Below are positions 30,008 through 63,976 of a stretch of DNA of 64,000 nt, in pieces (position 1 is the first letter of the stretch; each line of letters starts with the position of its first letter). Made by a program: the position numbers and the translations under genes. The notes below the pieces were generated by a model. The model had not been told where the DNA came from. It saw nothing but the letters and a program-made list of their open reading frames with translations, and did not search any database. Origin of the DNA: an uncultured Nitrospiraceae bacterium (GTDB lineage: Bacteria; Nitrospirota; Nitrospiria; Nitrospirales; Nitrospiraceae). The DNA is taken from NCBI GenBank assembly GCA_963706325.1, contig CAVPLT010000004.1, positions 64,001 through 128,000 on the forward strand, written 5' to 3'.

Positions 30008-31267
30008 ATGGCAGCCAAGCGGACGGTCACTCAATTGGAACAGGCCTTGCGCGAAAAAACACGCGAAGTGGATGTCCTGCATCGTATCAGCGAGTCGATC
30101 AACAATACCCTCGACCTTGAGTCGGTGCTTCGGCATATCGTCGATATGGTCGTAGAAGTGACCAAGGCCGATGCCTGCCTGCTTTATCTGATCTCCGACG
30201 GCAGGGACGAACTCATGCTACGAGCCTCGAAAAATCCCCATCCTAAATTGATCGGACGCATCACCATTGGGCTGGGCGAGGGGATCACCGGCTGGGTGGC
30301 CAGAGAACGGACTCGTGTGGTGATCCCGAATAACGCCAGCGATGATTCTCGGTTCAAGTTCTTTCACAACCTTCCGGAGGATCGCTACCAGGCCTTTGTC
30401 TCGGTGCCTATCACGACCAAGCTGGAGGTCGTCGGAGTCATCAATGTGCAGCACAAACGGTCGCGACGGTATCGGCCTGACGAGTTGGCATTACTCTCGA
30501 CGATCGCCACGCAGGTGGGCGGGGCCATCGAAAACGCCCGACTCTATGATCAGATGACACGCAAGGCTCTCCAGCTCGACACACTCTCACAGGTGTCGGA
30601 AACCGTGTCGTCAAACCGATTGATTGAGGATGTGTTGCAACTCATCGTCACGATGACGGCGCAAATGATGGGGTCGAAGATTTGTTCCATTATCTTGTTG
30701 GATCAGGCGACAGGCGAACTGCGAATCGCCGCCACGCAAAGTTTAAGCGAGCAGTATCGCCGCAAGCCCAATGTCAAGATCGGTCAAAGTATCAGCGGGC
30801 GGGCCGTTCAAGATCGTCGTCCGATCATCGTGCCCGACGTCACCAAAGAAAGCGCATATATGTACCCGGATATGGCGACAAAAGAAGGGCTGTGTTCGCT
30901 CCTGTGTGTGCCGATGCTGGTTCGGGAGAAAGGTATCGGGGTCATCAATACCTACACCTCTAAGCCGCATACCTTTACGGCCGAGGACGTCAAGCTCATG
31001 CAGGCCATCGCCAATCAGGCTGCAATTTCTATCGAGCATACGACGTTGCTTGAGAAGTCGTTTGAGATGCAAGAGGCGTTACAAGTCCGCAAGCTGCTCG
31101 ACCGGGCTAAAGGATACCTCATGCGGGCGAAGAGGTTGTCGGAGGAGGAGGCATTCAAGCTGATTCAGCGACAAAGCATGGACCTTCGCAAGTCCATGCG
31201 AGAAATTGCGGAAGCCATTTTGCTGGCAGGTGAAATTGAAGAGCGGGCCGACAGAAATAGAGGCTAG
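30008..31267 (+). CDS. GAF-GAF-ANTAR RNA-binding antitermination regulator
   Basis: Two GAF repeats (GEGITGWVA..SVPI..VVGVINVQ; GQSISGRAV..LCVPML..GVIN) and a C-terminal ANTAR helix bundle RKLLDRAKGYLM...LSEEEAFKLIQRQSMDLRKSMREIAEAI. Confidence 0.93.
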   Translation: MAAKRTVTQLEQALREKTREVDVLHRISESINNTLDLESVLRHIVDMVVEVTKADACLLYLISDGRDELMLRASKNPHPKLIGRITIGLGEGITGWVARERTRVVIPNNASDDSRFKFFHNLPEDRYQAFVSVPITTKLEVVGVINVQHKRSRRYRPDELALLSTIATQVGGAIENARLYDQMTRKALQLDTLSQVSETVSSNRLIEDVLQLIVTMTAQMMGSKICSIILLDQATGELRIAATQSLSEQYRRKPNVKIGQSISGRAVQDRRPIIVPDVTKESAYMYPDMATKEGLCSLLCVPMLVREKGIGVINTYTSKPHTFTAEDVKLMQAIANQAAISIEHTTLLEKSFEMQEALQVRKLLDRAKGYLMRAKRLSEEEAFKLIQRQSMDLRKSMREIAEAILLAGEIEERADRNRG

Positions 31268-32378: not shown

Positions 32379-32437
32379 GGACAATGACGTCCTCATCTCA
32401 TCGCAGACATCAATAACGCAGAGGACAATGACGTCCT
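32379..32437 (+). promoter_or_regulatory. ANTAR-binding dual hexaloop hairpin (leader 1)
   Basis: GGAC-AATGAC-GTCC at 32379-32392 and AGGAC-AATGAC-GTCCT at 32422-32437; loops have A1/G4. Confidence 0.85.
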
Positions 32438-32475
32438 TTTGGTCCGAAGGCTGGACCGGAAGGGCGTTTTTTTTT
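32431..32475 (+). terminator. Intrinsic terminator overlapping ANTAR hairpin 2 (leader 1)
   Basis: ACGTCCTTTTGGTCC pairs with GGACCGGAAGGGCGT, followed by a T9 run. Confidence 0.88.
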
Positions 32476-32536
32476 GGCGCGTTGGCTCCTCCGGTCTGGT
32501 TCATTCCAATCATATGTAACCAGGAGGGCGATCAGG

Positions 32537-41318: not shown

Positions 41319-43046
41319 ATGAAGATTCCCAGACGCCAATATAACGACCTCTACGGGCCCACCATAGGGGACCGGATCCGCCTGGCCGATACGGACTTGC
41401 TGGTCGAGATCACGCGCGATCTGACCGTGCCTGGTGAAGAGGCCAAGTTCGGCGGCGGCAAGGTGATTCGCGACGGCATGGGACAGTCTCCAGCTGCCAC
41501 CAGGGCCAAGGGCGCGCTGGATCTCGTCATTACAAATGCGATCATCATCGATTGGTGGGGCATCGTGAAGGCCGACATTGGAATTCGTGACGGACGTATC
41601 GTGGGCATCGGCAAATCCGGAAGCTCCGACGTGATGGATGGCGTGACGAAGGGCATGGAGATCGGCCCTTGTACTGAGGTGTTGTCGGCTGAGGGAAAAA
41701 TCGTCACCGCCGGCGGGATCGACACGCATATCCATTTCATCTGCCCCCAGATCATCACCGAGGCGCTGGCGAACGGACTGACGACGCTTATCGGCGGAGG
41801 CACCGGCCCGGCTACCGGGACAAATGCGACGACCTGCACGCCGGGACCATGGAACATTCACCGCATGCTGGAGGCGGCGGATGGGTTTCCGATCAATCTG
41901 GGTTTTCTGGGCAAGGGCAACTCGTCGCTGCCGGAGGGATTGAACGAGCAGGTCGAGGCAGGCGCGATTGGACTGAAGCTGCATGAAGATTGGGGAACGA
42001 CGCCGGCCGCCATCGATACTTGCCTGAGCGTCGCGGAGCGTTACGACGTGCAGGTGGCGATTCATACCGACACGATCAACGAAGCCGGGTTCGTGGAGGA
42101 TACGATTAAAGCTTTTAAGGGTCGGACGATCCACTCGTTCCACACGGAAGGGGCCGGTGGAGGTCATGCTCCGGATATCATTAAAGTCTGCGGCGAGCCG
42201 AACGTGTTGCCCTCCTCGACGAATCCCACCATGCCGTTCACGGTCAATACGATGGATGAGCATCTCGACATGCTGATGGTGTGCCACCATCTGAATCCGC
42301 GTGTACCCGAAGATATCGCCTTTGCCGAATCGCGCATCCGCCGTGAAACGATCGCCGCCGAAGATATCTTGCACGATATGGGCGCGATCAGCATCATGTC
42401 ATCCGATTCGCAGGCGATGGGACGGGTGGGCGAAGTCATCATCCGCACATGGCAAACGGCGCATAAAATGAAAGTACAGCGAGGACATTTGTCGGAGCGT
42501 GGCACCGACAACTCAGATGGACAACACGATAATTGGCGTGCCCGGCGGTACGTGGCAAAGTACACCATCAATCCCGCCATCGCGCATGGGGTGGCCCATG
42601 AGGTAGGGTCGATTGAAGTCGGCAAATTGGCGGATCTCGTGTTATGGAAACCGGCTTTCTTCGGGGTCAAGCCTGAGATCGTCCTAAAGGGTGGGTTCCC
42701 GATGTCGGCGGCCATGGGCGATCCCAACGCTTCAATCCCGACGCCGCAGCCGGTATTGACGCGGCCCATGTTCGGGAGCTTTGGCCGCGCGCCCTTCTCC
42801 ACGAGTCTGACGTTTCTCTCTCAGAAGGCCTTGGAGCGGGAGGTGCCGAAGCAGTTGGGATTGCAGAAACGCGTCGTGGCGGTCAAAGGCTGTCGAAATA
42901 TCGGTAAGCAGGATCTGAAATTGAATGATGCGTTGCCACGGATTGAGGTTGATTCCGAAACATATGAAGTGCGCGCCGATGGGGAATTGCTCACATGTGA
43001 ACCGGTGGCGCTATTGCCGATGGCGCAACGTTACTTCTTGTTCTGA
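41319..43046 (+). CDS. ureC: Urease alpha subunit
   Basis: [43 protein letters not shown]. Confidence 0.99.
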
Positions 43047-46528: not shown

Positions 46529-46558
46529 TTGACAGTCCATTCTGGCCGGTGATATACA
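46529..46558 (+). promoter_or_regulatory. Candidate promoter of the nadE-amtB-PII-glnD-glnA operon
   Basis: TTGACA-N18-TATACA. Confidence 0.6.
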
Positions 46559-46574
46559 CCAGGCACCATTTTCC

Positions 46575-46641
46575 GGAGACAACGGAGTCTTCGACGGGCG
46601 CTTCGGTCGATTATCAAATGCAGACAGGACAACGACGTCCT
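46575..46641 (+). promoter_or_regulatory. ANTAR-binding dual hexaloop hairpin (leader 2)
   Basis: GGAGAC-AACGGA-GTCTTC at 46575-46592 and AGGAC-AACGAC-GTCCT at 46626-46641. Confidence 0.85.
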
Positions 46642-46677
46642 CCGATCCACACCCGTGGGTTTGAGGACGTTTTTTTT
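46635..46677 (+). terminator. Intrinsic terminator overlapping ANTAR hairpin 2 (leader 2)
   Basis: ACGTCCTC..ATCCAC/GTGGGT..GAGGACGT followed by a T8 run. Confidence 0.88.
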
Positions 46678-46821
46678 CAGCATGCTGAAATCGGCCCGTT
46701 ACGTTGTTCTCATCCGCCGCTCAAGCACCTCGACGCGTAGCCCACTGTGCAACTGGGTGGCCGTGGTCCTGGCGGCTTCGTGGCATGACGGATTTGAGCC
46801 TGCTGGTACGGAAGCGCACTG

Positions 46822-54133: not shown

Positions 54134-55543
54134 ATGAACGTTCGTGAGGTCTTAGATTTTGCTAAGAAAAACAAGGTCCAGGTCGTGGACATGAAATTCG
54201 TGGACCTGATCGGAACCTGGCAGCATTTCACCATTCCGATCAGCGAACTGACGGAAGGCCTGTTCAAGGACGGCTCGGGGCTGGATGGCTCGTCGATTCG
54301 AGGCTGGAGAGCGATCAATAACAGCGACATGTTGCTCGTGCCTGATCCGTCAACCGCCTGTCTGGACCCCTTCTGCTCCGTACCGACCCTGAGCCTGGTC
54401 GGCAATGTGGTCGACCCGATCACGCGTGAAACCTATGATCGGGATCCGCGATATATCGCGCAGAAGGCGGAGAAATATCTGCAAAGCACCAAGATCGGCG
54501 ACATTTCCTATTGGGGCCCGGAAGCCGAATTTTTTATCTTCGATCATGCGCGTTATGACCAAACGAATCACAGTGGGTATTACTTCATCGATTCCGATGA
54601 GGGCGTGTGGAATATGGGGCAGGAAGGCGTGAACCTGGGCGGCAAGATCCGCCACAAGGAGGGATACTTCCCTGTGCCGCCGACTGACACGCAGCAGGAC
54701 ATCCGCACCGAAATGGTGCTGGAAATGGAAAAGGCCGGCATCGCCACCGAGAAACATCACCATGAAGTGGCCACGGCGGGTCAGGCGGAAATCGACATTC
54801 GGTTCGATAGCCTGGTGAGAACCGCGGACAAAATGATGATGTTCAAATACATCGTCAAGAACGTCGCGCGGCGGCATGGCAAGACTGCCACCTTCATGCC
54901 GAAACCCATTTTCGGAGACAATGGGTCGGGCATGCATACGCACCAGAGCATCTGGAAAGAGGGCAAGCCCCTGTTCGCCGGGAAAGAGTATGCGGGCGTG
55001 TCGCAGATGTGTTTGCACTACATCGGGGGCATCCTGAAGCATGCGCCGGCGCTGGCCGCCTTCACCAATCCCTCGACCAATTCCTACAAGCGACTGACGC
55101 CGGGCTTTGAAGCGCCGGTGCTGCTGGCCTATTCAAGCCGCAACCGGTCTGCCGGCATTCGCATTCCCATGTATTCACCCAGCCCTAAGGCGAAGCGGAT
55201 TGAAGTGCGTTTCCCTGATCCGGCTGCAAACCCCTACCTTGCCTTTGCCGCCATGCTCATGGCCGGCTTGGACGGGATCGAAAACAAAATCAATCCTGGC
55301 GAGCCGGCGGAGAAAGATCTGTACGATCTCGAAGCCAAGGAAGCCGCCAAGATTCGAACCATGCCGGGGAGTTTGGATGAGGCGCTCAATCACCTCGAGA
55401 AGAATCACCAATTCCTGCTGAAGGGCGGCGTATTTAGCGAAGACCTGATCGAGTCTTGGATCGCCTACAAGCGTAGTAAGGAAGTGGATACGATGCGGTT
55501 GCGGCCGCATCCGTATGAATTCTTCCTGTATTACGACGTGTAG
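54134..55543 (+). CDS. glnA: Glutamine synthetase type I (GSI-beta)
   Basis: [42 protein letters not shown], adenylylation loop DLYDL. Confidence 0.99.
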
Positions 55544-55570
55544 CCTGCCGACCCCGGCATCAACAATCCC

Positions 55571-55600
55571 TTGACGATGCTACAGGGGCGATGGTATACA
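55571..55600 (+). promoter_or_regulatory. Candidate promoter of the FNT-cynS-nirA operon
   Basis: TTGACG-N18-TATACA. Confidence 0.6.
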
Positions 55601-55619
55601 TGGTCCTGCGGGTGAGAGA

Positions 55620-55678
55620 AGGCAACGAGGCCTAATTTACACCGGTACTACAATATGTACACGGACAAAGGCGTCCGT
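55620..55678 (+). promoter_or_regulatory. ANTAR dual hairpin, module 3a
   Basis: AGGC-AACGAG-GCCT at 55620-55633 and ACGGAC-AAAGGC-GTCCGT at 55661-55678. Confidence 0.82.
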
Positions 55679-55712
55679 CATTCTTACAAGAGTGGCGGAC
55701 GTCTTATTTTTT
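55670..55712 (+). terminator. Intrinsic terminator 3a overlapping its ANTAR hairpin
   Basis: GGCGTCCGTCATTC pairs with GAGTGGCGGACGTC, then TTATTTTTT. Confidence 0.82.
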
Positions 55713-55713
55713 A

Positions 55714-55783
55714 GCCGACGGCGAAGTCGGTAAAGTTAATCTTGGTGAGGCATGACAGCCTCGCCCCAGGACAACGACGTCCT
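55714..55783 (+). promoter_or_regulatory. ANTAR dual hairpin, module 3b
   Basis: GCCGAC-GGCGAA-GTCGGT (G1/G4 loop), intervening stem 55744-55765, then AGGAC-AACGAC-GTCCT at 55768-55783. Confidence 0.75.
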
Positions 55784-55816
55784 CTTCCCAGCCGCGGGAT
55801 GAGGGCGTTTTTTTTT
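55777..55816 (+). terminator. Intrinsic terminator 3b overlapping its ANTAR hairpin
   Basis: ACGTCCTCTTCCC/GGGATGAGGGCGT followed by a T9 run. Confidence 0.88.
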
Positions 55817-55851: not shown

Positions 55852-56682
55852 ATGCATGCAGCAGATCACGAGCGAATCGCAGGAGTGGCAGCCAAGAAGT
55901 GGTCGTTTCTCGAACAATCACCAAGCGGATATCTCATCCTTTCAGTCCTCGCCGGGATTTATCTGGGATTTGGGATTGCGCTGATTTTCAGCCTTGGCGG
56001 CCCCTTGGCGGCTGCCGGGTCTCCCGCAGTGAAACTCATCATGGGGGTCTCGTTCGGAATTGCGTTGACGCTCGTGATCTTTGCGGGCTCTGAATTGTTT
56101 ACCGGCAACAACATGATCGGCGCGATCGGAGGACTGTCGAAAAGCCTCTCTTGGCCGCAAGTCGTTCAGCTAAATGCCTGGTCGTGGCTTGGCAACCTCG
56201 TAGGGTCGTTGGCATTGGCGTGGCTGGTCATTCAATCAGGTGTGTTTGCCAAGGGCCCGACCACGGATCTGATTGAGAAGGTGGCCGCGGTAAAAATGTC
56301 GCTTCCAGCCTGGGAACTGTTTGTGCGGGGAATTCTCTGTAACTGGCTGATCTGTCTGGCGGTCTGGATGGCGGCGCGGACGAACAATGACACGGCGAAG
56401 ATCCTCCTGATTTTCTGGTGCCTGTTTGCATTCATTGGCACCGGCTTCGAACACAGTATCGCCAATCAATCGTTCTTGGGCATGGCCCTGTTCCTGCCGC
56501 ATGACGCGGCCGTCAGCTGGGCGGGCTTTTGGTACAACCAAATCTTTGTGGTGCTAGGCAATATCGTCGGTGGCGGGCTGTTTGTCGGCGGGCTCTACTG
56601 GATGGTGAGCCCCTATCGCGTAAAGGAAACGCCGGAGGAGCCTGTCGCTCAGCCGGTCAGTGCGGCAGTCGTCGGGTCATAA
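55852..56682 (+). CDS. nirC: Formate/nitrite transporter family channel (NirC-like; nitrite or cyanate uptake)
   Basis: LAGIYLG, GSELFTGN, GNLVG, GILCNWLICL, GFEHSIAN, GNIVGG. Confidence 0.88.
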   Translation: MHAADHERIAGVAAKKWSFLEQSPSGYLILSVLAGIYLGFGIALIFSLGGPLAAAGSPAVKLIMGVSFGIALTLVIFAGSELFTGNNMIGAIGGLSKSLSWPQVVQLNAWSWLGNLVGSLALAWLVIQSGVFAKGPTTDLIEKVAAVKMSLPAWELFVRGILCNWLICLAVWMAARTNNDTAKILLIFWCLFAFIGTGFEHSIANQSFLGMALFLPHDAAVSWAGFWYNQIFVVLGNIVGGGLFVGGLYWMVSPYRVKETPEEPVAQPVSAAVVGS

Positions 56683-56728: not shown

Positions 56729-57169
56729 ATGGAAAAAGAAGCTATACGCAAGGCGATCAAAGCGCAACGGTTGAGCAAGAAGGTGACGATCGCCGAGGTC
56801 GCAAAGACGGTCGGAAAGAATCCTACATTTGTGGCGGCGGCACTGAACGGCAATCACCGCCTCACACCCGAGGAAGCGATGAAGGTCGGAAAGTTGCTGG
56901 ACTTGGATAAGGAACACATCGGCGCCCTCAGCGCTTTTCCTGTTCGCACCGATTTTCCTAATGCGACGGATCCATTCAAGTACCGGTTATTGGAAATCAT
57001 CGGTGTCTACGGAGATTCGATGCGTGAGCAGGCGAATGAGATGTTCGGCGACGGCATCATGAGTGCGATCGACTTCACCCTGGATATGGAAAAGGTCACC
57101 GGAAGTCAGGGGGAGGCCCGCTGCAAGATTACACTGAACGGGAAGTGGCTCGAGTATAAGACGTTCTGA
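56729..57169 (+). CDS. cynS: Cyanate hydratase (cyanase)
   Basis: TDPFKYRLLE, E.FGDGIMSAIDF, TLNGKWL.Y; N-terminal HTH-like domain. Confidence 0.95.
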   Translation: MEKEAIRKAIKAQRLSKKVTIAEVAKTVGKNPTFVAAALNGNHRLTPEEAMKVGKLLDLDKEHIGALSAFPVRTDFPNATDPFKYRLLEIIGVYGDSMREQANEMFGDGIMSAIDFTLDMEKVTGSQGEARCKITLNGKWLEYKTF

Positions 57170-57221: not shown

Positions 57222-57419
57222 ATGAACACGAATGCAGAAACGGCTGTACTGACACTTCTGGAGAGACAGGCTCCCCAAACATTCGAAGAATTGATGGCCC
57301 TTTCCGGTCTGAGCGCGTCACAGGTGTTGCTGGTGGTGGATCGATTAAGCCGGGAAGGCACGGTGGTATTGAGGAAAACCGGACCGGACTATTCCGTCGC
57401 ACTGGGAGGCATGAGATGA
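57222..57419 (+). CDS. Small hypothetical winged-helix-like protein
   Basis: GGAGG RBS; TFEELMALSGLSASQVLLVVDRLSREGTV HTH-like pattern; stop overlaps nirA ATG. Confidence 0.6.
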   Translation: MNTNAETAVLTLLERQAPQTFEELMALSGLSASQVLLVVDRLSREGTVVLRKTGPDYSVALGGMR

Positions 57420-59023
57420 ACAAGATCGAGGCGATCAAGACGGAACGGGACGGGTTAACAGTGCGCGACATGATCGCGCACTATGCGCTAACCGGGTGGG
57501 AGACCATTCCCGAGGACGATATTCAACGGTTGAAATGGTGCGGGCTATTCCTGAGAAATCCCACTCCCGGCCATTTCATGTTGCGCGTGCGTCTTCCAGG
57601 CGGACGAACGACGTCGGCCCAGCTTGAATCGCTGGCAGGCATTGCACTGCAGTATGGCAATGGTGTGGTGGATGTCACCACGAGACAACAAGTTCAACTG
57701 CGCCACCTGACGATTGAGCATATCCCGGCCGTGTTCGCGAAGCTGTCGGACGCGGGACTCACCTCGCTACAAACCGGCATGGATACGGTTCGCAACATCA
57801 TGACCTGCCCGGTGGCGGGCTTGAATCCGAATGAACTGCTGGATGGAACCGACATCGTTCGCGCCATCAATGAAGAGGTGTTGGGCAATCCCGCCTATAC
57901 GAATCTTCCTCGTAAGTGCAATATTGCCGTGACCGGCTGCCCGGACAATTGCCTCCATACGGAGACGCAAGACATCGCGCTCGTACCGGCCTATCACGAT
58001 CTGGGGCATGACAAGTGCTACGGGTATAACGTGCTGGTCGGCGGAAAGTTGGGTTCAGGTGGTTACCGAATTGCCAGTTCCCTGGATATGTTCGTGAATC
58101 CAGCCGAAGCCCTCGACGTCTGTCGGACCATCCTTCACATTTACCGCGACCATGGGCCGCGCGAGAATCGTACGCAAGCGCGCCTGGCGTTCCTCGTGGA
58201 AGCCTGGGGTGAGGCGCGGTTGCGGCAAGAGGTCGAGGTTCGGATGGGACGGACCTTGCCGGGAGCAGGCACCGATGCGAGGGCGGCAACCGAGCGTGAC
58301 CACATCGGCATCTTCCGCCAAAAGCAACGCGGCATGAATTATATCGGACTCAAGGTATTGGTTGGTCGCGTCAAGGCGGCCGATCTTCGGAATATTGCCG
58401 CGTTGGCGGCTCGGTACGGCACGGGCGAAGTGCGACTGTCGCCGGCGCAAGCTTTCGTCATCCCGCATGTCACTGATCGGTTGGTGGGCGAACTGGCAGA
58501 AGAGCCGCTCGTCAAGCAATTCGCCTACAACCCATCCGCTCTGTACAAGGGGCTCGTGAGCTGTGTGGGAAGCGACTATTGCAATCTGGCAGTTATAGAA
58601 ACCAAGAGCCGGGCTGTCGACACGGCACGTGCCTTGGAGCGTAAGCTGGGCGATGGTCTGAAGCCGATCACGCTGCATTGGTCCGGTTGTCCGGCGGGCT
58701 GCGGCAACCATCTGGTGGCGGACATCGGGCTTTTGGGAAAGAAGGCGAAGGTGGGCGGCAAGGTGATCGATGCGGTCGATATATTCGTCGGCGGCCGATC
58801 GGGGCCTGATCCCAAACTTGCCACCAAGATCATGGAAGATGTTCCCTGCGACAAGCTTCCGTCCGTGCTGGAGACGCTCATGCCTTACCATACGCGAGAA
58901 AAGATGCATCGTGTGCGTGGAAAGGCACTGTCCAAAGCGACGGGGTCGGGTAAGCCGGCGGCATCCGGTACTGAGGCGGCCGGAATCATGCCGGACCTAA
59001 CGCCTCAACCGTTTCCCGCCTAA
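57416..59023 (+). CDS. nirA: Ferredoxin-nitrite reductase (assimilatory, siroheme/4Fe-4S)
   Basis: MNKIEAIK, RLKW.GLF, TTRQ..QL, NLPRK.N, SCVG..YC and HWSGCPAGCG siroheme-FeS cysteines. Confidence 0.9.
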   Translation: MNKIEAIKTERDGLTVRDMIAHYALTGWETIPEDDIQRLKWCGLFLRNPTPGHFMLRVRLPGGRTTSAQLESLAGIALQYGNGVVDVTTRQQVQLRHLTIEHIPAVFAKLSDAGLTSLQTGMDTVRNIMTCPVAGLNPNELLDGTDIVRAINEEVLGNPAYTNLPRKCNIAVTGCPDNCLHTETQDIALVPAYHDLGHDKCYGYNVLVGGKLGSGGYRIASSLDMFVNPAEALDVCRTILHIYRDHGPRENRTQARLAFLVEAWGEARLRQEVEVRMGRTLPGAGTDARAATERDHIGIFRQKQRGMNYIGLKVLVGRVKAADLRNIAALAARYGTGEVRLSPAQAFVIPHVTDRLVGELAEEPLVKQFAYNPSALYKGLVSCVGSDYCNLAVIETKSRAVDTARALERKLGDGLKPITLHWSGCPAGCGNHLVADIGLLGKKAKVGGKVIDAVDIFVGGRSGPDPKLATKIMEDVPCDKLPSVLETLMPYHTREKMHRVRGKALSKATGSGKPAASGTEAAGIMPDLTPQPFPA

Positions 59024-59956: not shown

Positions 59957-61654
59957 TCATTGGGTGTGGTGAGGATAGGTGGTTTTAAGCGCTGCAATCG
60001 TACTAGCTAGCAGGGCAGGTCCTTTCGCTACTTGGTCAGTTCCGCCGAGTTGATCGTACTCTTTCTTTACGAGAGCGAGACTTTGTTCAATACGAGCGTT
60101 GTCGAGTTTCGACAAGTCCAGCTTAGCGAGATCCTCTCGCGTTGGTTCCGCTTTTCTAGCCAAGCTCGCAATCACATGCATGGCCACGTAGAACCTCAAA
60201 TTATTCCGGTCTTTTGTGACAAGGCCGCTTGAAGATGACTTCAAAAACTCCTCGACGCGTCTCATTGCCTCTGCGCATGTGTAATACAAGTGAATCGGAT
60301 AGTTATCGCTATACAATTTATCGTAGTCCTCATTCTTCTTTAGAAGCGAAGAGGGGCGCGCTCGCGCAGTATCAGGACGCTGAAGCAGGATAGCCATTAC
60401 TGCCTGTGCTAGATGCGGGATGCCGACGATTTTATCGCGAGACTTTCCCTCATTCTTATAGGAATTTTTGCGTCTGTCATAGAACAGCCCTTTCGGTCTG
60501 AAGAACTCTTCAATATCTCGGTGGATTTTATCGGTAGCCCGGAGAGATGCCTGCTGAACTGCCGTTTGGCTATTAGTGGCCTTAATGATCCGATCCCGAC
60601 TCTCTTGTTCCGTCGGAACGATTATGCGTACAAGAATTTTTCTATTGTCGGACTCAGTATTGCACTTTTTGCAGTAGTTAAAAATCTCCGTGGAAGTCTG
60701 GAGACCGTTCACTACCTGTGGATCCTCTATCGTGAGAGCTTTGCCGCTTTGCGATGCTTTTATTGCGATTATGGTGATGCCGTTATTAAGCCACCAAAAA
60801 TCCTCAGAGTGCCGCTCTTGGAGGGATTGCTGGATTTCATCATTTACTTCAGTTCGTCCTTGGTAGTCTCTTACATTCGCTTCAAAAATTTGGCGTCGGA
60901 GTGCCCCTGTGGTGTCGCTTATGAATGTGAAATAGTCACGGACCCGAACCAGGCATACAAAACCAACTTGGCCTTCGGATGAAATAGGATTTTCGGCCAG
61001 AGGAAGGGTGTAAGTCGTCTGCGGAGCTCGCCGTGCGAGCGAGAGAAGTTCAGATGCGCCTAGAAAGTTGAAAGCGAATTCGGCAGAAGGGAAATGCTTG
61101 TGGATAATGGCTTCCAGCTTCTCGACTTTTCGTTGGACATTGTTCTCAGGTCGCTCGCCTTTGCAGACGTAGAAGAACGAAACCCTCAAGGTGGGGAACT
61201 TTGCCGCTAATTGCTGGTGGACTAAGCGAAAGGCGCTAATCGCTTCAACGAGCGACTCGTTATACACTTTCATGAAGGAGCTTGTAGCCTTTGATAGGTC
61301 GAATATGTCGTCGCTGGCTGTAATAAATCGTTCGACAGGCGTTTCTTGAAATCCGGAACTCGTCTTCGCCTGAATTACAATGACATCAAGAATTATATTC
61401 TTTTTTAAGCGATTGTAATCGGGCTCCTCTTGGACAAGTTCCCCATTAACGAAAAGATAGATTGCGTCTATGCCACCATCCCCATTGGCTCCCACAAGCC
61501 CCGACTCGATTTCGTCATAAGAAAGATCAAAGTCCTTTAAAACTTGTTCGGATGTAAAGAGTTCAAAGAATTCTGAGGGAGTTGTTCCAGGATCGATTTC
61601 TGCCTGTCTTTGTTTCAAGATTTCATCAAGAATGATTCTGTCATTTGACGCCAT
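59957..61654 (-). CDS. AIPR family (abortive infection phage resistance) protein
   Basis: DGGIDAIY, IQAK, IFEANVRDYQG, FWWLNNGITI, QVVNGLQTS, ATNSQT; AT-richer than neighbours. Confidence 0.85.
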   Translation of the reverse strand: MASNDRIILDEILKQRQAEIDPGTTPSEFFELFTSEQVLKDFDLSYDEIESGLVGANGDGGIDAIYLFVNGELVQEEPDYNRLKKNIILDVIVIQAKTSSGFQETPVERFITASDDIFDLSKATSSFMKVYNESLVEAISAFRLVHQQLAAKFPTLRVSFFYVCKGERPENNVQRKVEKLEAIIHKHFPSAEFAFNFLGASELLSLARRAPQTTYTLPLAENPISSEGQVGFVCLVRVRDYFTFISDTTGALRRQIFEANVRDYQGRTEVNDEIQQSLQERHSEDFWWLNNGITIIAIKASQSGKALTIEDPQVVNGLQTSTEIFNYCKKCNTESDNRKILVRIIVPTEQESRDRIIKATNSQTAVQQASLRATDKIHRDIEEFFRPKGLFYDRRKNSYKNEGKSRDKIVGIPHLAQAVMAILLQRPDTARARPSSLLKKNEDYDKLYSDNYPIHLYYTCAEAMRRVEEFLKSSSSGLVTKDRNNLRFYVAMHVIASLARKAEPTREDLAKLDLSKLDNARIEQSLALVKKEYDQLGGTDQVAKGPALLASTIAALKTTYPHHTQ

Positions 61655-61700
61655 CACGTTCTCCACACAAGTAATAAAGTGAGCTATCGAAGTCTCTAAA

Positions 61701-63976
61701 TCACAGCTTCCCAAACGTCCTCTCAAAAAACTCTTTCGTCAACTTCATGTGCTCCTCGATATCCGTCTGCAGATGCCTGGCGCCTGCTTGCCAATCATCG
61801 GTCGTGTAGCCGACGCGGCGGGCGAGGAAGATGAACTCGTCTGAGTCTGACGGCGGAAGCACAAGATCCTTGGCGTTGCCCCGCACCATGCGCAGTCCAT
61901 CGATCAAATTGCGAATGAAGAGATAGGCCTTCCGCAAGTGTTCGCCGTCCTGCCTTGCCACAATTCCGCCTTCAACCAGCCCTGAGAGCGCCTGCATACT
62001 GTTGGGCGTACGAAGCACTGGATGCTTGTGACCGTGCATGACTTGGAGGTACTGGATGGCATACTCGATGTCGACGAGCCCGCCGGCGCTGTGTTTCACA
62101 TTCACGGTGCCTGGTTCGACAAGCTGTTTCAATTGTTGCCGCCGGAGGTCGAGGGCGATATCGAGATCCCAAGGCCCGCCGCCGTACACGTATCGATCTC
62201 GGTGAGCTTCGACCTGTTTCCCCAGCGCGGCGTCTCCGGCGACGGAGCGCAGTTTGATCATGGCCTGTCGTTCGAAGGGTGCGGCCAAACCGGTGGGGCT
62301 GTAGTAGCTGACGATCTCCTCCAATGGATTGGTGAGGGAACCCTTGCCGCCATGGGGGCGCAGGCGAATGTCGAGGTGGAAGATGCCTTCCTGCTTGGCC
62401 TCGATGCCTTGCAGGAGTTCTTGCGCGAGCCGCTCAAAATATTCGCTGTTTTCTATGCCCTGTTTCCCGTTGGTGCGCCCCATGCCGCCGTAGACGAAGA
62501 GCACTTCGATGTCCGAAGCATACCCGAGCTCACGGCCTCCGAACTTGCCCATGCCGAGCACTGCAAAGAGACAGGGTTTCTTGGTTGCAAGTTGCGGTGC
62601 GCCGTATTGTTTTTTCAGCTTGGCCTGGCAGTCTCGCAGGCTGCGCTCGACGATGACTTCTGCCAGTTCCGTCAACGCTTCTGAGAAATCGGCGAGGCTT
62701 GCGGCGTCGACCATATGCTTCATATCGATCCGAAAGAGTTCCTGGTCCTTGAATCGATTCAACGTTTCTTTGCGCGCCTCCTCCGTTTTTGCTTTGGCCA
62801 TCAGGCGGTCGAGCTCCTTGCGCAGCGCCGCTTGCGGCTTGATCAGCGGGGCGTCGCGGTAGTCCTTCAGGAGCGGCAATAGATTGCCGTGCTGGCGGCG
62901 AAGAAAGTCTTCCCACAGAAAGTCGCTGGTTCCGAGTAGGCGAGCAAGGATGGGAAAGGTTTTCTTGTCGCTGAGAAACGAAAGGGCCTGTTGCTGGGCC
63001 TTGCCTTTCGTGTCCTGCACGGTCAGGTCGAGAAACTGGTCGAAGGCCTCCAGCGCCTTGGCCGGGTCCGGCGCCCAGGTCAGGGCATGGGTGAATTGTT
63101 TGATGAGCACAGCGGTGAGGCGCAGCTGTTGTTGATCGACGGGATCGGTCAGCTTCTGGCCGTGACGATTGCGGACATAGAAACGGTCATGCAGCTTGCC
63201 GCCCTCGATCGAGAATTGTGCTTTGGCAATGTAGATGTTCCGCATCGCCAAGGCGTTGGCGAAGGCGTAGAGAAACGCAGGAGTATCATCCGACTGGATA
63301 TCCATGACGGTATCGGTCGGAGATTGGCTATTGTCGAAGGTGATCTGAACGGTGTGAAGGAGTCCGCTGAACGAACTGCGGCGTTTTCCGAGGTACTCGA
63401 CGAGTTGCCGGTTCACGGCTTGACGGGCTTCGTCGAACTGGTTCGGCATCCAGGAGCGTAATCATCTGCGTGAGTTCGGCGACTAGTCGGCTGCGATCGT
63501 CTGAATCGAATGTCGCACCGCGCACGGGTTGCACGCGAAAGACATCGACGATTTTTTTGCGGCTCAGGCCCGGGCGGATCTTTCGGGCGCGCGCGCGGGC
63601 TGTCCGTCCATGAGGGGCGCGCGGCAGCGGAGGAAGTTCCCTCGATAAATGTGTAGATCTGACCTTCTTCGATGTTCAACCCGAAGGCGGAGAGGAGGCC
63701 GCAGATCGTGGCAAATTCTGAAAAGTAGTCATAGGCGACGATGGTGATGGTGCAGTGATCGCCGGTGGTATCCTCGATGGACAGTTCGCAGGGGTGGTCC
63801 GGCGAGAGCGTGGCCGCCTGCTTGATGTGGGCTGCGAGAGTCTTCGGAGGGAATGCCGTGAAATAGTCCGGGTCCATCCGCGTGACGAAGTCTTGCAGAA
63901 TGTCGCTGGGCACGCCATGGCAGAGCGGCGTCAGGGTGGCGAGGATCTGGTCTCGGTCGGCGTCAGCTGGCGGCAT
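61701..63976 (-). CDS. glnE: Glutamine synthetase adenylyltransferase-like protein with an N-terminal ACT pair; two frameshifts (about 63578 and 63444)
   Basis: LGMGKFGGRELGYASDIE, DIRLRPHG, FERQA, NVKHSAGGLVDIEY; three frames join as ..RPK/RPGLSRKKIVDVF..LLDA/NQFDEAR. Confidence 0.85.

What the first reader, a model, noticed from the sequence alone, without database searches (positions are those of the whole stretch)
55571..55816. Double attenuator: two ANTAR/terminator modules in series before FNT-cynS-nirA
Seen: module 3a (loops AACGAG and AAAGGC; terminator 55670-55712) is followed immediately by module 3b (loops GGCGAA and AACGAC; terminator 55777-55816). Inference: two serial terminators give tighter, steeper control. 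That would suit a nitrite oxidiser that should divert its energy substrate and reduced ferredoxin to NirA only under real ammonium shortage. It may also screen readthrough from glnA, which has only a weak hairpin behind it. This implies a ranked hierarchy among N sources.
Basis: partly seen in the sequence, partly recalled or inferred. Interest (0 to 1): 0.78.

Follow-up and report, generated by a model that had tools for sequence, protein, structure and literature searches.

The report
Tandem ANTAR attenuator before cyanate operon
Two predicted transcription stop signals sit one behind the other in front of the cyanate- and nitrite-uptake genes of nitrite-oxidising Nitrospira, each likely overridden by the cell's single ANTAR RNA-binding protein when nitrogen runs short; the switch type is known and doubled layouts were predicted in other bacteria, but the layout appears untested.

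Summary
Confirmed. A conserved sigma70-like promoter (55571-55600) precedes two dual-hexaloop/terminator modules (T1 55668-55712, T2 55776-55816). The genome's only ANTAR protein (GAF-GAF-ANTAR, 30008-31267) lies in the same window. All 47 fetched glnA-FNT junctions carry both modules; the tandem pattern occurs in 95 of 251 family genomes, and the terminator stems covary. In one genus, 40 genomes lacking the regulator have almost no modules. T1 likely doubles as the glnA terminator and survives as a relic where the operon is lost. Published N. moscoviensis expression on nitrite gives no support for a 'last resort' ranking. The second recruitment hairpin is consistently degenerate (G1 rather than A1). 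Same-strand tandem ANTAR-terminator pairs were already listed for Firmicutes in a 2012 supplement, and this scan noted similar tandems and this regulon on other DNA. A steeper response is plausible but untested. New variant of a known mechanism.

The parts
55571..55600 (+). Predicted sigma70-type promoter: -35 TTGACG (55571-76), 18-nt spacer, TG at 55592-93, -10 TATACA (55595-55600)
   Evidence: Sequence; TTGAC...TGnTAnA pattern matched in 46 of 48 leaders, one further with a variant -35; high score at a fixed distance in 83 of 84; start site not mapped
55620..55633 (+). P1a recruitment hairpin, loop AACGAG (A1, G4, C-G closing pair), at the tip of a longer interrupted stem
   Evidence: loop position 1 is A in 76 of 82 best hairpins
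55661..55678 (+). P2a antiterminator hairpin, loop AAAGGC, mutually exclusive with T1
55668..55712 (+). Predicted intrinsic terminator T1 (17-bp stem, interrupted U-tract); likely also the terminator of glnA transcripts
55714..55731 (+). P1b degenerate recruitment hairpin, loop GGCGAA (G1, G4, C-G closing pair)
   Evidence: G4 in 79 of 82 best C-G-closed hexaloops of the inter-module segment, picked without regard to loop sequence; position 1 G in 63, A in 15
55744..55765 (+). Spacer hairpin (8 bp, loop of variable size in relatives) that would shorten the P1b-P2b linker
55768..55783 (+). P2b antiterminator hairpin, loop AACGAC, mutually exclusive with T2
55776..55816 (+). Predicted intrinsic terminator T2 (13 bp with an internal loop, 9-T run)
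54134..55543 (+). glnA, type I glutamine synthetase; no terminator of its own before the leader
   Evidence: TIGR00653 above cut-off
55852..56682 (+). FNT/NirC-family channel (nitrite or cyanate uptake, predicted)
   Evidence: PF01226; best NCBIfam match NirC, below cut-off
56729..57169 (+). cynS, cyanase
   Evidence: TIGR00673 above cut-off
57416..59023 (+). nirA, ferredoxin-nitrite reductase
   Evidence: PRK09566 547.6 bits against cut-off 594; NIR_SIR domains
30008..31267 (+). GAF-GAF-ANTAR one-component regulator, the only ANTAR protein found in the genome; likely reader of the modules
32379..32476 (+). Single module of the same type before the putative porin and urtABCDE urea transporter genes (same predicted regulon)
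46529..46679 (+). Promoter of the same type plus a single module before nadE-amtB-glnB-glnD-glnA (same predicted regulon)

Best explanation
The 308-nt stretch between glnA and the FNT-cynS-nirA genes holds a conserved promoter-like site and two predicted intrinsic terminators in series, each overlapped by an ANTAR-type hairpin, and the genome's single GAF-GAF-ANTAR protein likely has to override both before the cyanate/nitrite genes are transcribed. Shown: the anatomy, its conservation and covariation, the single regulator, and joint loss of regulator and modules in one genus. Inferred: when ammonium is plentiful the regulator is inactive (its first GAF domain resembles the glutamine-binding GAF of EI-Ntr, so high glutamine is the most likely off signal); transcripts from the leader's own promoter and from glnA then stop at T1, and leak-through stops at T2. 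Under nitrogen shortage the active dimer is recruited by P1a and holds P2a, then by the degenerate P1b and holds P2b. The two terminators likely have partly different jobs: T1 also ends glnA transcripts, while T2 is the dedicated gate of the cyanate operon. Two independent checkpoints would multiply, lowering basal leak and steepening the response.
For: 47 of 47 fetched loci with glnA directly before FNT, plus one contig-edge locus, carry both modules. Terminator-state structure on 48 leaders: 99.2% of cells paired, 11 of 34 pairs with changes on both sides, 0 of 500 shuffles as high, slid controls 43-58%; antiterminator hairpins 98.5% paired. One ANTAR protein in the genome, found in 201 of 251 family genomes; it keeps an aromatic residue at the EutV Tyr164 position and the Met172 plug (alignment, numbering from PMC8934654). 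In genus g10 the 10 genomes with the regulator have 2-6 module matches each, while the 40 without it have 8 matches in 7 genomes; 5 single-contig genomes of these have no PF03861 match (positive control). A decayed leader with broken hairpins but a retained T1-like stem follows glnA in 1 of those 5, and a T1-like relic without promoter or P1a in 3 of 4 amoA-bearing g19 genomes (read by eye). T2 still forms (p>0.9) in 81 of 85 leaders when P2a is forced; median coupling -0.4 kcal/mol. In N. moscoviensis, which has the tandem, glnA is at 2324 and the next gene at 431 RPKM on nitrite alone. The first GAF domain's best matches include PtsP/EI-Ntr GAF structures; glutamine binds that domain (PMC4848567 passages).
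Against: No direct evidence of termination at either site: the RNA runs found were contigs with small shares. P1b lacks the A1 of the 2012 consensus in most leaders, and 4 of 85 leaders have no qualifying G4 hexaloop between the modules; the N. moscoviensis P1b is not a clean hexaloop. Linkers (27 and 36 nt here) are longer than the 5-12 nt of E. faecalis eut leaders, where lengthening abolishes antitermination; the folded spacers are my explanation, untested. The P2 stems are nearly invariant, so their pairing is hardly tested by covariation. The joint loss may be a single evolutionary event. In 2 of 85 leaders the upstream gene is not glnA and the tandem persists. The reversed-pattern control gave 0 in the 40 regulator-less genomes, so their 8 matches are not shown to be chance; the two displayed lack a terminator-like stem, the others were not inspected. 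The ligand is inferred from domain similarity only.
Confidence: 0.75

Rival explanations
1. Hand-off rather than independent checkpoints: a regulator dimer loaded on module a is passed along the nascent RNA to module b, so P1b needs only low affinity and read-through of T2 depends on module a. The response would then not be squared; the second module would only proofread.
For: P1b is degenerate in most leaders while P1a is canonical. The successive-binding model for EutV has the dimer move from P1 to P2 (PMC8934654). P1b starts 2 nt behind the T1 tail.
Against: P1b keeps the C-G closing pair and G4, the only base-specific contact in the EutV structure, so it can be a recruitment site by itself. 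RNA folding shows little coupling, although that says nothing on protein transfer.
Confidence: 0.2
2. Only one terminator regulates: T1 is a leaky end-of-operon signal for glnA (or T2 a backup), and the second set of hairpins is left over from a duplication.
For: T1's U-tract is weaker than T2's in 54 of 85 leaders and stronger in 13 (31 and 0 of 35 in this genus). T1-like relics persist behind glnA where the downstream operon is gone.
Against: All three canonical loops and the P1b G4 are conserved across 16 genera of the 85 leaders; P1a and P2a decay in those relics while they are kept wherever the operon is kept.
Confidence: 0.1
3. One reading: the double module keeps NirA and its ferredoxin demand off until single-module operons (urea, ammonium uptake) have failed.
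For: In this genome the urea and nadE-amtB leaders have one module and the cyanate/nitrite leader has two. Serial checkpoints would raise the apparent threshold.
Against: The tandem precedes ABC transporter-cynS operons in genomes with no nirA match, including one with octaheme nitrite reductase genes behind a separate single module. In N. moscoviensis on nitrite, tandem-led genes are expressed above single-module-led first genes (one condition, promoter strengths unknown).
Confidence: 0.15

Closest known systems
EutV and the eut leaders of Enterococcus faecalis (Ramesh 2012, PMC3369931; Walshe 2022, PMC8934654)
   Same: Dual hexaloop hairpins with G4 and a C-G closing pair; P2 overlaps the terminator's 5' arm; several modules per regulon; ANTAR domain aligns with EutV.
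   Different: eut modules stand singly before different genes; linkers 5-12 nt against 27 and 36 nt here; EutV is a phosphorylated response regulator, this is a one-component GAF-GAF-ANTAR protein; P1b lacks A1.
Predicted paired ANTAR-terminator hits in Firmicutes (Ramesh 2012 Table S2)
   Same: Same-strand hit pairs 81-251 nt apart before the same nitrogen genes: D. acetoxidans 34402/34596, 1043787/1043969, 1656692/1656943; D. carboxydivorans 813893/813992; P. thermopropionicum 651231/651312.
   Different: Listed only, not discussed as tandems in the passages and section I read, and not tested there; no Nitrospira entry in its supplements.
GnfR regulon of Geobacter sulfurreducens (Ueki and Lovley 2010, PMC2995071)
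   Same: Site consensus CAGGCAANGGCGCC closely matches P1a; nitrogen-limitation regulon including amtB and glnK.
   Different: Two-component GnfK/GnfR under RpoN promoters; here a sigma70-type promoter and a GAF-GAF sensor.
NasR and the nasF leader of Klebsiella oxytoca (PMC7496416)
   Same: One-component ANTAR antiterminator of nitrite/nitrate assimilation genes.
   Different: NIT domain senses nitrate/nitrite directly; a single terminator.
Pseudo-cooperative tandem riboswitches (PMC9481103)
   Same: Two independent terminate-or-continue decisions in series that steepen the dose response.
   Different: Metabolite-binding RNA there; a protein-bound hairpin pair here. It works like one, it is not one.

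Membership tests
ANTAR dual-hexaloop attenuator | Two hairpins with stems of at least 3 bp and six-base loops | tested here: met
   Both modules
ANTAR dual-hexaloop attenuator | G at loop position 4 and C-G closing pair | tested here: met
   All four loops here; G4 in 79 of 82 P1a and 79 of 82 P1b candidates. P2 loops were selected by a pattern that requires it.
ANTAR dual-hexaloop attenuator | A at loop position 1 (2012 consensus), module a and P2b | tested here: met
   P1a, P2a and P2b here all start with A; 76 of 82 P1a, 78 of 85 P2b
ANTAR dual-hexaloop attenuator, strict 2012 consensus (module b) | A at loop position 1 of P1b | tested here: not met
   G here and in 63 of 82. Module b is therefore not filed under the strict 2012 consensus; it fits the 2022 redefinition, in which A1 makes no protein contact and one hexaloop is the minimal site.
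ANTAR dual-hexaloop attenuator | P2 overlaps the 5' arm of an intrinsic terminator, mutually exclusive | tested here: met
ANTAR dual-hexaloop attenuator | ANTAR protein in the genome, co-occurring with the RNA | tested here: met
ANTAR dual-hexaloop attenuator | Inter-hairpin spacing compatible with antitermination | tested here: inconclusive
   Loop-to-loop 43 and 53 nt here, 43-50 nt in the window's single modules, 23-60 nt for P1b across relatives; longer than eut leaders, shortened by folded spacers in the predictions
ANTAR dual-hexaloop attenuator | Protein binds the RNA and raises read-through | not testable with these tools
   Needs binding and in vitro transcription assays
Pseudo-cooperative tandem attenuator (works-like comparison) | Two terminators under one promoter, no internal promoter | tested here: met
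   (consensus scoring only)
Pseudo-cooperative tandem attenuator (works-like comparison) | Both terminators used in vivo, and dose response steeper than for one module | not testable with these tools
   Only contig-level RNA data were available

The most novel reading that the evidence does not exclude
The GAF-GAF-ANTAR protein is the glutamine-sensing master switch of nitrogen scavenging in nitrite-oxidising Nitrospira, and this leader is a built-in two-stage device: a canonical, high-affinity first module on the glnA terminator and a deliberately degenerate second module that sets a higher threshold or is loaded by hand-off, giving the first protein-driven pseudo-cooperative attenuator open to test; ammonia-oxidising relatives dismantled it stepwise.
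Probability: 0.3. Interest if true: 0.7.

Novelty: new variant of a known kind. Interest (0 to 1): 0.45.

Why it matters
[quoted passage not shown] The leader gives a short, testable RNA element in two cultured species, a candidate sensor, and a natural pair of single and double modules read by one protein, which allows a direct test of whether serial ANTAR terminators multiply or hand off. The mechanism class itself is known.

Tried and rejected
Rfam scan: no family on the leader. A loose genome-wide hairpin scan gave 67 hits, mostly noise; only four stood out. RNA runs: five small-share metatranscriptomes found, three laid with one other run; all were contigs; one contig covers 55716-55912 and one 55516-55659; nothing on ends or levels can be drawn. 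Internal promoter: the TACAAT at 55648-53 is not conserved and has no -35 partner; rejected. Coupling through pairing of the freed T1 3' arm with T2: not supported by folding; two of the four exceptions (L003, L065) are errors of my pair indexing. The T-window test was invalid, since the window included glnA codons; it was replaced. MAFFT misaligns P1b across genera, so P1b was scored per sequence, not by covariation. The tandem pattern allows only 89-119 nt between motifs and misses longer tandems (for example 127 nt in L126). No ammonium-plus versus ammonium-minus expression data were found. The protein Atlas gave no answer. No structure prediction was run. Three of the 86 FNT matches lay at contig edges and were not fetched; 40 of the tandem loci not led by FNT were fetched, and 3 of these (a different leader type) were left out of the 85; L226 was left out because its glnA match was partial.

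Full report
1. Observation. The leader lies between glnA (54134-55543) and an FNT channel gene (55852-56682), followed by cynS and nirA. It contains, in order: a promoter-like site (55571-55600), P1a (loop AACGAG), P2a (loop AAAGGC) overlapping terminator T1 (17-bp stem 55668-55705, tail to 55712), P1b (loop GGCGAA), an 8-bp spacer hairpin, and P2b (loop AACGAC) overlapping terminator T2 (55776-55809, 9-T run to 55816). The minimum-energy fold shows both terminators (z = -7.75, 0 of 200 shuffles). A dinucleotide model expects 1.4e-5 such motif pairs per genome.

2. The reader protein. The genome has one PF03861 match, a 419-aa GAF-GAF-ANTAR protein at 30008-31267. Its ANTAR domain aligns with Rv1626, EutV and NasR; by my reading of that alignment against the EutV numbering in PMC8934654 (passages) it keeps Lys143, an aromatic residue (Phe) at Tyr164, which stacks on G4, the Met172 plug and Arg175, and differs at Arg168 and Arg177. 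Its first GAF domain matches PtsP/EI-Ntr GAF structures (E 2.6e-23 and 3.3e-17) and the N-terminus of the PtsP model, its second half the N-terminus of the NifA model (domain-level matches below the cut-offs). Glutamine binding to the EI-Ntr GAF is reported (PMC4848567 passages). The ligand here is inferred only. Two single modules with the same P2 motif and the same promoter type precede the porin-urt operon (P2 loop 32427) and nadE-amtB-glnB-glnD-glnA (46631). Close homologues are in records titled Nitrospira, including N. defluvii (95%) and N. moscoviensis (85%); both genomes carry the tandem (110 and 99 nt apart).

3. Conservation. 83 of 251 family genomes match the FNT protein; I fetched 83 of the 86 listed matches. 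All 47 with glnA directly upstream, plus one contig-edge locus, have both modules. On these 48 leaders the terminator-state structure is 99.2% paired, with 11 of 34 pairs changed on both sides and 0 of 500 shuffles as high; the three canonical hairpins are 98.5% paired but mostly invariant. Relatedness inflates such shuffle tests. A two-motif pattern hit 95 of 251 genomes in 17 of 39 genera and the reversed pattern none. Adding 37 further leaders gave 85. The upstream gene is glnA in 81, another gene in 2, a contig end in 2; the first downstream gene is FNT in 48, an NrtA/CmpA-like ABC binding protein in 33, cynS in 3, a contig end in 1. Kop et al. describe both transporters beside cynS as candidate cyanate importers and do not mention ANTAR (PMC12342949 passages). 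27 of 93 carriers of the post-glnA type have no nirA match at E 1e-150 (incomplete genomes included); one 99%-complete example reads glnA, tandem, ABC transporter, cynS, single module, two amt, Rieske, cytochrome b, octaheme cytochrome. The tandem therefore belongs to the cyanate operon, not to nirA.

4. Asymmetry of the modules. Picking the most stable C-G-closed six-base loop between the modules without looking at its sequence gave G4 in 79 of 82, but position 1 was G in 63 and A in 15, against A in 76 of 82 for P1a; 4 of 85 leaders had no qualifying G4 loop. A1 makes no protein contact in the EutV structure, so P1b can still work, probably more weakly (inference). T2 has the longer U-tract in 54 of 85 and the shorter in 13. 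The predicted cost of switching is 13.0 kcal/mol for module a and 9.5 for module b (medians; 11.9 and 6.2 here), and forcing P2a leaves T2 intact in 81 of 85. A promoter-like site scores high upstream in 83 of 84 leaders and internally in 1 of 85.

5. Natural losses. The regulator is in 201 of 251 genomes, 38 of 38 in this genus but 10 of 50 in genus g10. The 34 amoA-bearing g10 genomes all lack it; the 10 with it have 2-6 module matches each, the 40 without have 8 matches in 7 genomes (the reversed control was 0 in those 40, and only two of the 8 were seen, neither terminator-like). Five single-contig amoA genomes have no ANTAR match at all. None of the 60 amoA genomes has the tandem pattern. 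Behind glnA, 1 of these 5 keeps a promoter-like site and a T1-like stem with broken P1a and P2a, and 4 keep nothing; 3 of 4 amoA-bearing g19 genomes, which retain the regulator, keep a T1-like stem without promoter or P1a (read by eye). With no terminator between the glnA stop and P1a in any of 48 leaders, this points to T1 as the glnA terminator too. These may be one or two evolutionary events. Beyond the family, the regulator is in 12 of 12 genomes of a sister family, 9 of them with one motif, and in 23 of 28 of a distant family at about 44% identity, mostly without this exact motif.

6. Expression. The only data are for N. moscoviensis on nitrite as sole N source (PMC6606698: passages, supplement search and Table_2 part 3): glnA 2324 RPKM, then nrtA 431, nrtB 367, nrtD 562, cynS 1731; nadE 191 and amtB_2 147 behind single modules; urtA 73, where I found no module upstream. 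So the tandem is read through under ammonium shortage, the level drops about five-fold from glnA, and there is no sign that tandem-led genes are the last resort. No ammonium comparison was found. Public RNA contigs were uninformative.

7. Mechanism. Most likely both terminators stop transcription by default, and the activated regulator permits read-through of each in turn. As an illustration only, NasR's in vitro read-through of 5% and 52% (PMC7496416 passages) would become 0.25% and 27% for two independent modules, a 108-fold instead of 10-fold range.

8. What is known. The dual-hairpin ANTAR attenuator is established (PMC3369931: passages, section 10, Table S2 in full). Table S2 already lists five same-strand hit pairs 81-251 nt apart before the same nitrogen genes in three Firmicutes, so the doubled layout is not new as a prediction; its supplements hold no Nitrospira entry. 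The P1a sequence resembles the Geobacter GnfR site (PMC2995071 passages). Serial independent terminators that steepen a response are described for riboswitches (PMC9481103 passages). Searches for tandem ANTAR terminators, for Nitrospira with ANTAR and for GAF-ANTAR nitrogen sensing returned no paper on this system in the held library, which lacks most subscription journals; for those I saw listings only. PMC5767232, PMC8115632 and PMC8407350 were read as passages and added no regulatory data. Earlier notes of this scan describe the same regulon in other Nitrospira genomes and tandem ANTAR leaders in other bacteria (unchecked AI notes, seen after my analysis). Calling the amoA-bearing genomes comammox rests on my own knowledge.

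9. Verdict. Real, strongly conserved, and a variant of a known mechanism: new host lineage, uncharacterised sensor, long spacers, an asymmetric pair of modules. Interest 0.45.

Noticed in passing
window 57222-57419 (+): A 65-codon ORF with a ribosome-binding site lies between cynS and nirA and overlaps the nirA start. Similar short ORFs appear before nirA or FNT in relatives (seen). By eye it resembles a winged-helix protein; function not examined.
   Followed up: no
L092, L113, L121 (G003:C129:354-484, G125:C63:6907-7019, G163:C75:27443-27558): A second kind of tandem ANTAR/terminator leader, with a canonical second P1, precedes an approximately 300-aa predicted exported protein of unknown function that is not an evident nitrogen gene.
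   Followed up: partly
L034, L041, L043-L045, L053-L064 and others: Other lineages place further single modules inside the operon (between cynS and nirA, cynS and FNT, or cynS and amt); this genome has none between cynS and nirA.
   Followed up: partly
L221 (G174), L222-L224 (G207, G101, G155), behind glnA: Stepwise decay of the leader in amoA-bearing genomes: the terminator stem persists while the promoter, P1a or the hexaloop signature is lost.
   Followed up: partly
genus g10 and g19 genomes: All 34 amoA-bearing g10 genomes lack the GAF-GAF-ANTAR regulator, while amoA-bearing g19 genomes keep it with 0-3 modules: two ammonia-oxidising lineages differ in nitrogen control.
   Followed up: partly
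L127 (G120): One complete genome of this genus carries both an octaheme cytochrome (8 CxxCH motifs) and nirA in tandem, with cynS directly behind the leader and no FNT.
   Followed up: no
L049, L051 (G231, G239): An insertion of about 170 nt with inverted-repeat character sits between T2 and the FNT start.
   Followed up: no
window 59957-61726 (+): An AT-richer 589-aa ORF interrupts the region between the CBS-domain gene and a glnE-like gene on the opposite strand; possibly a horizontally acquired restriction-related gene; not searched.
   Followed up: no
window 41464-41760 (-): Rfam 5_ureB_sRNA match inside ureC; probably reflects coding-sequence conservation.
   Followed up: no
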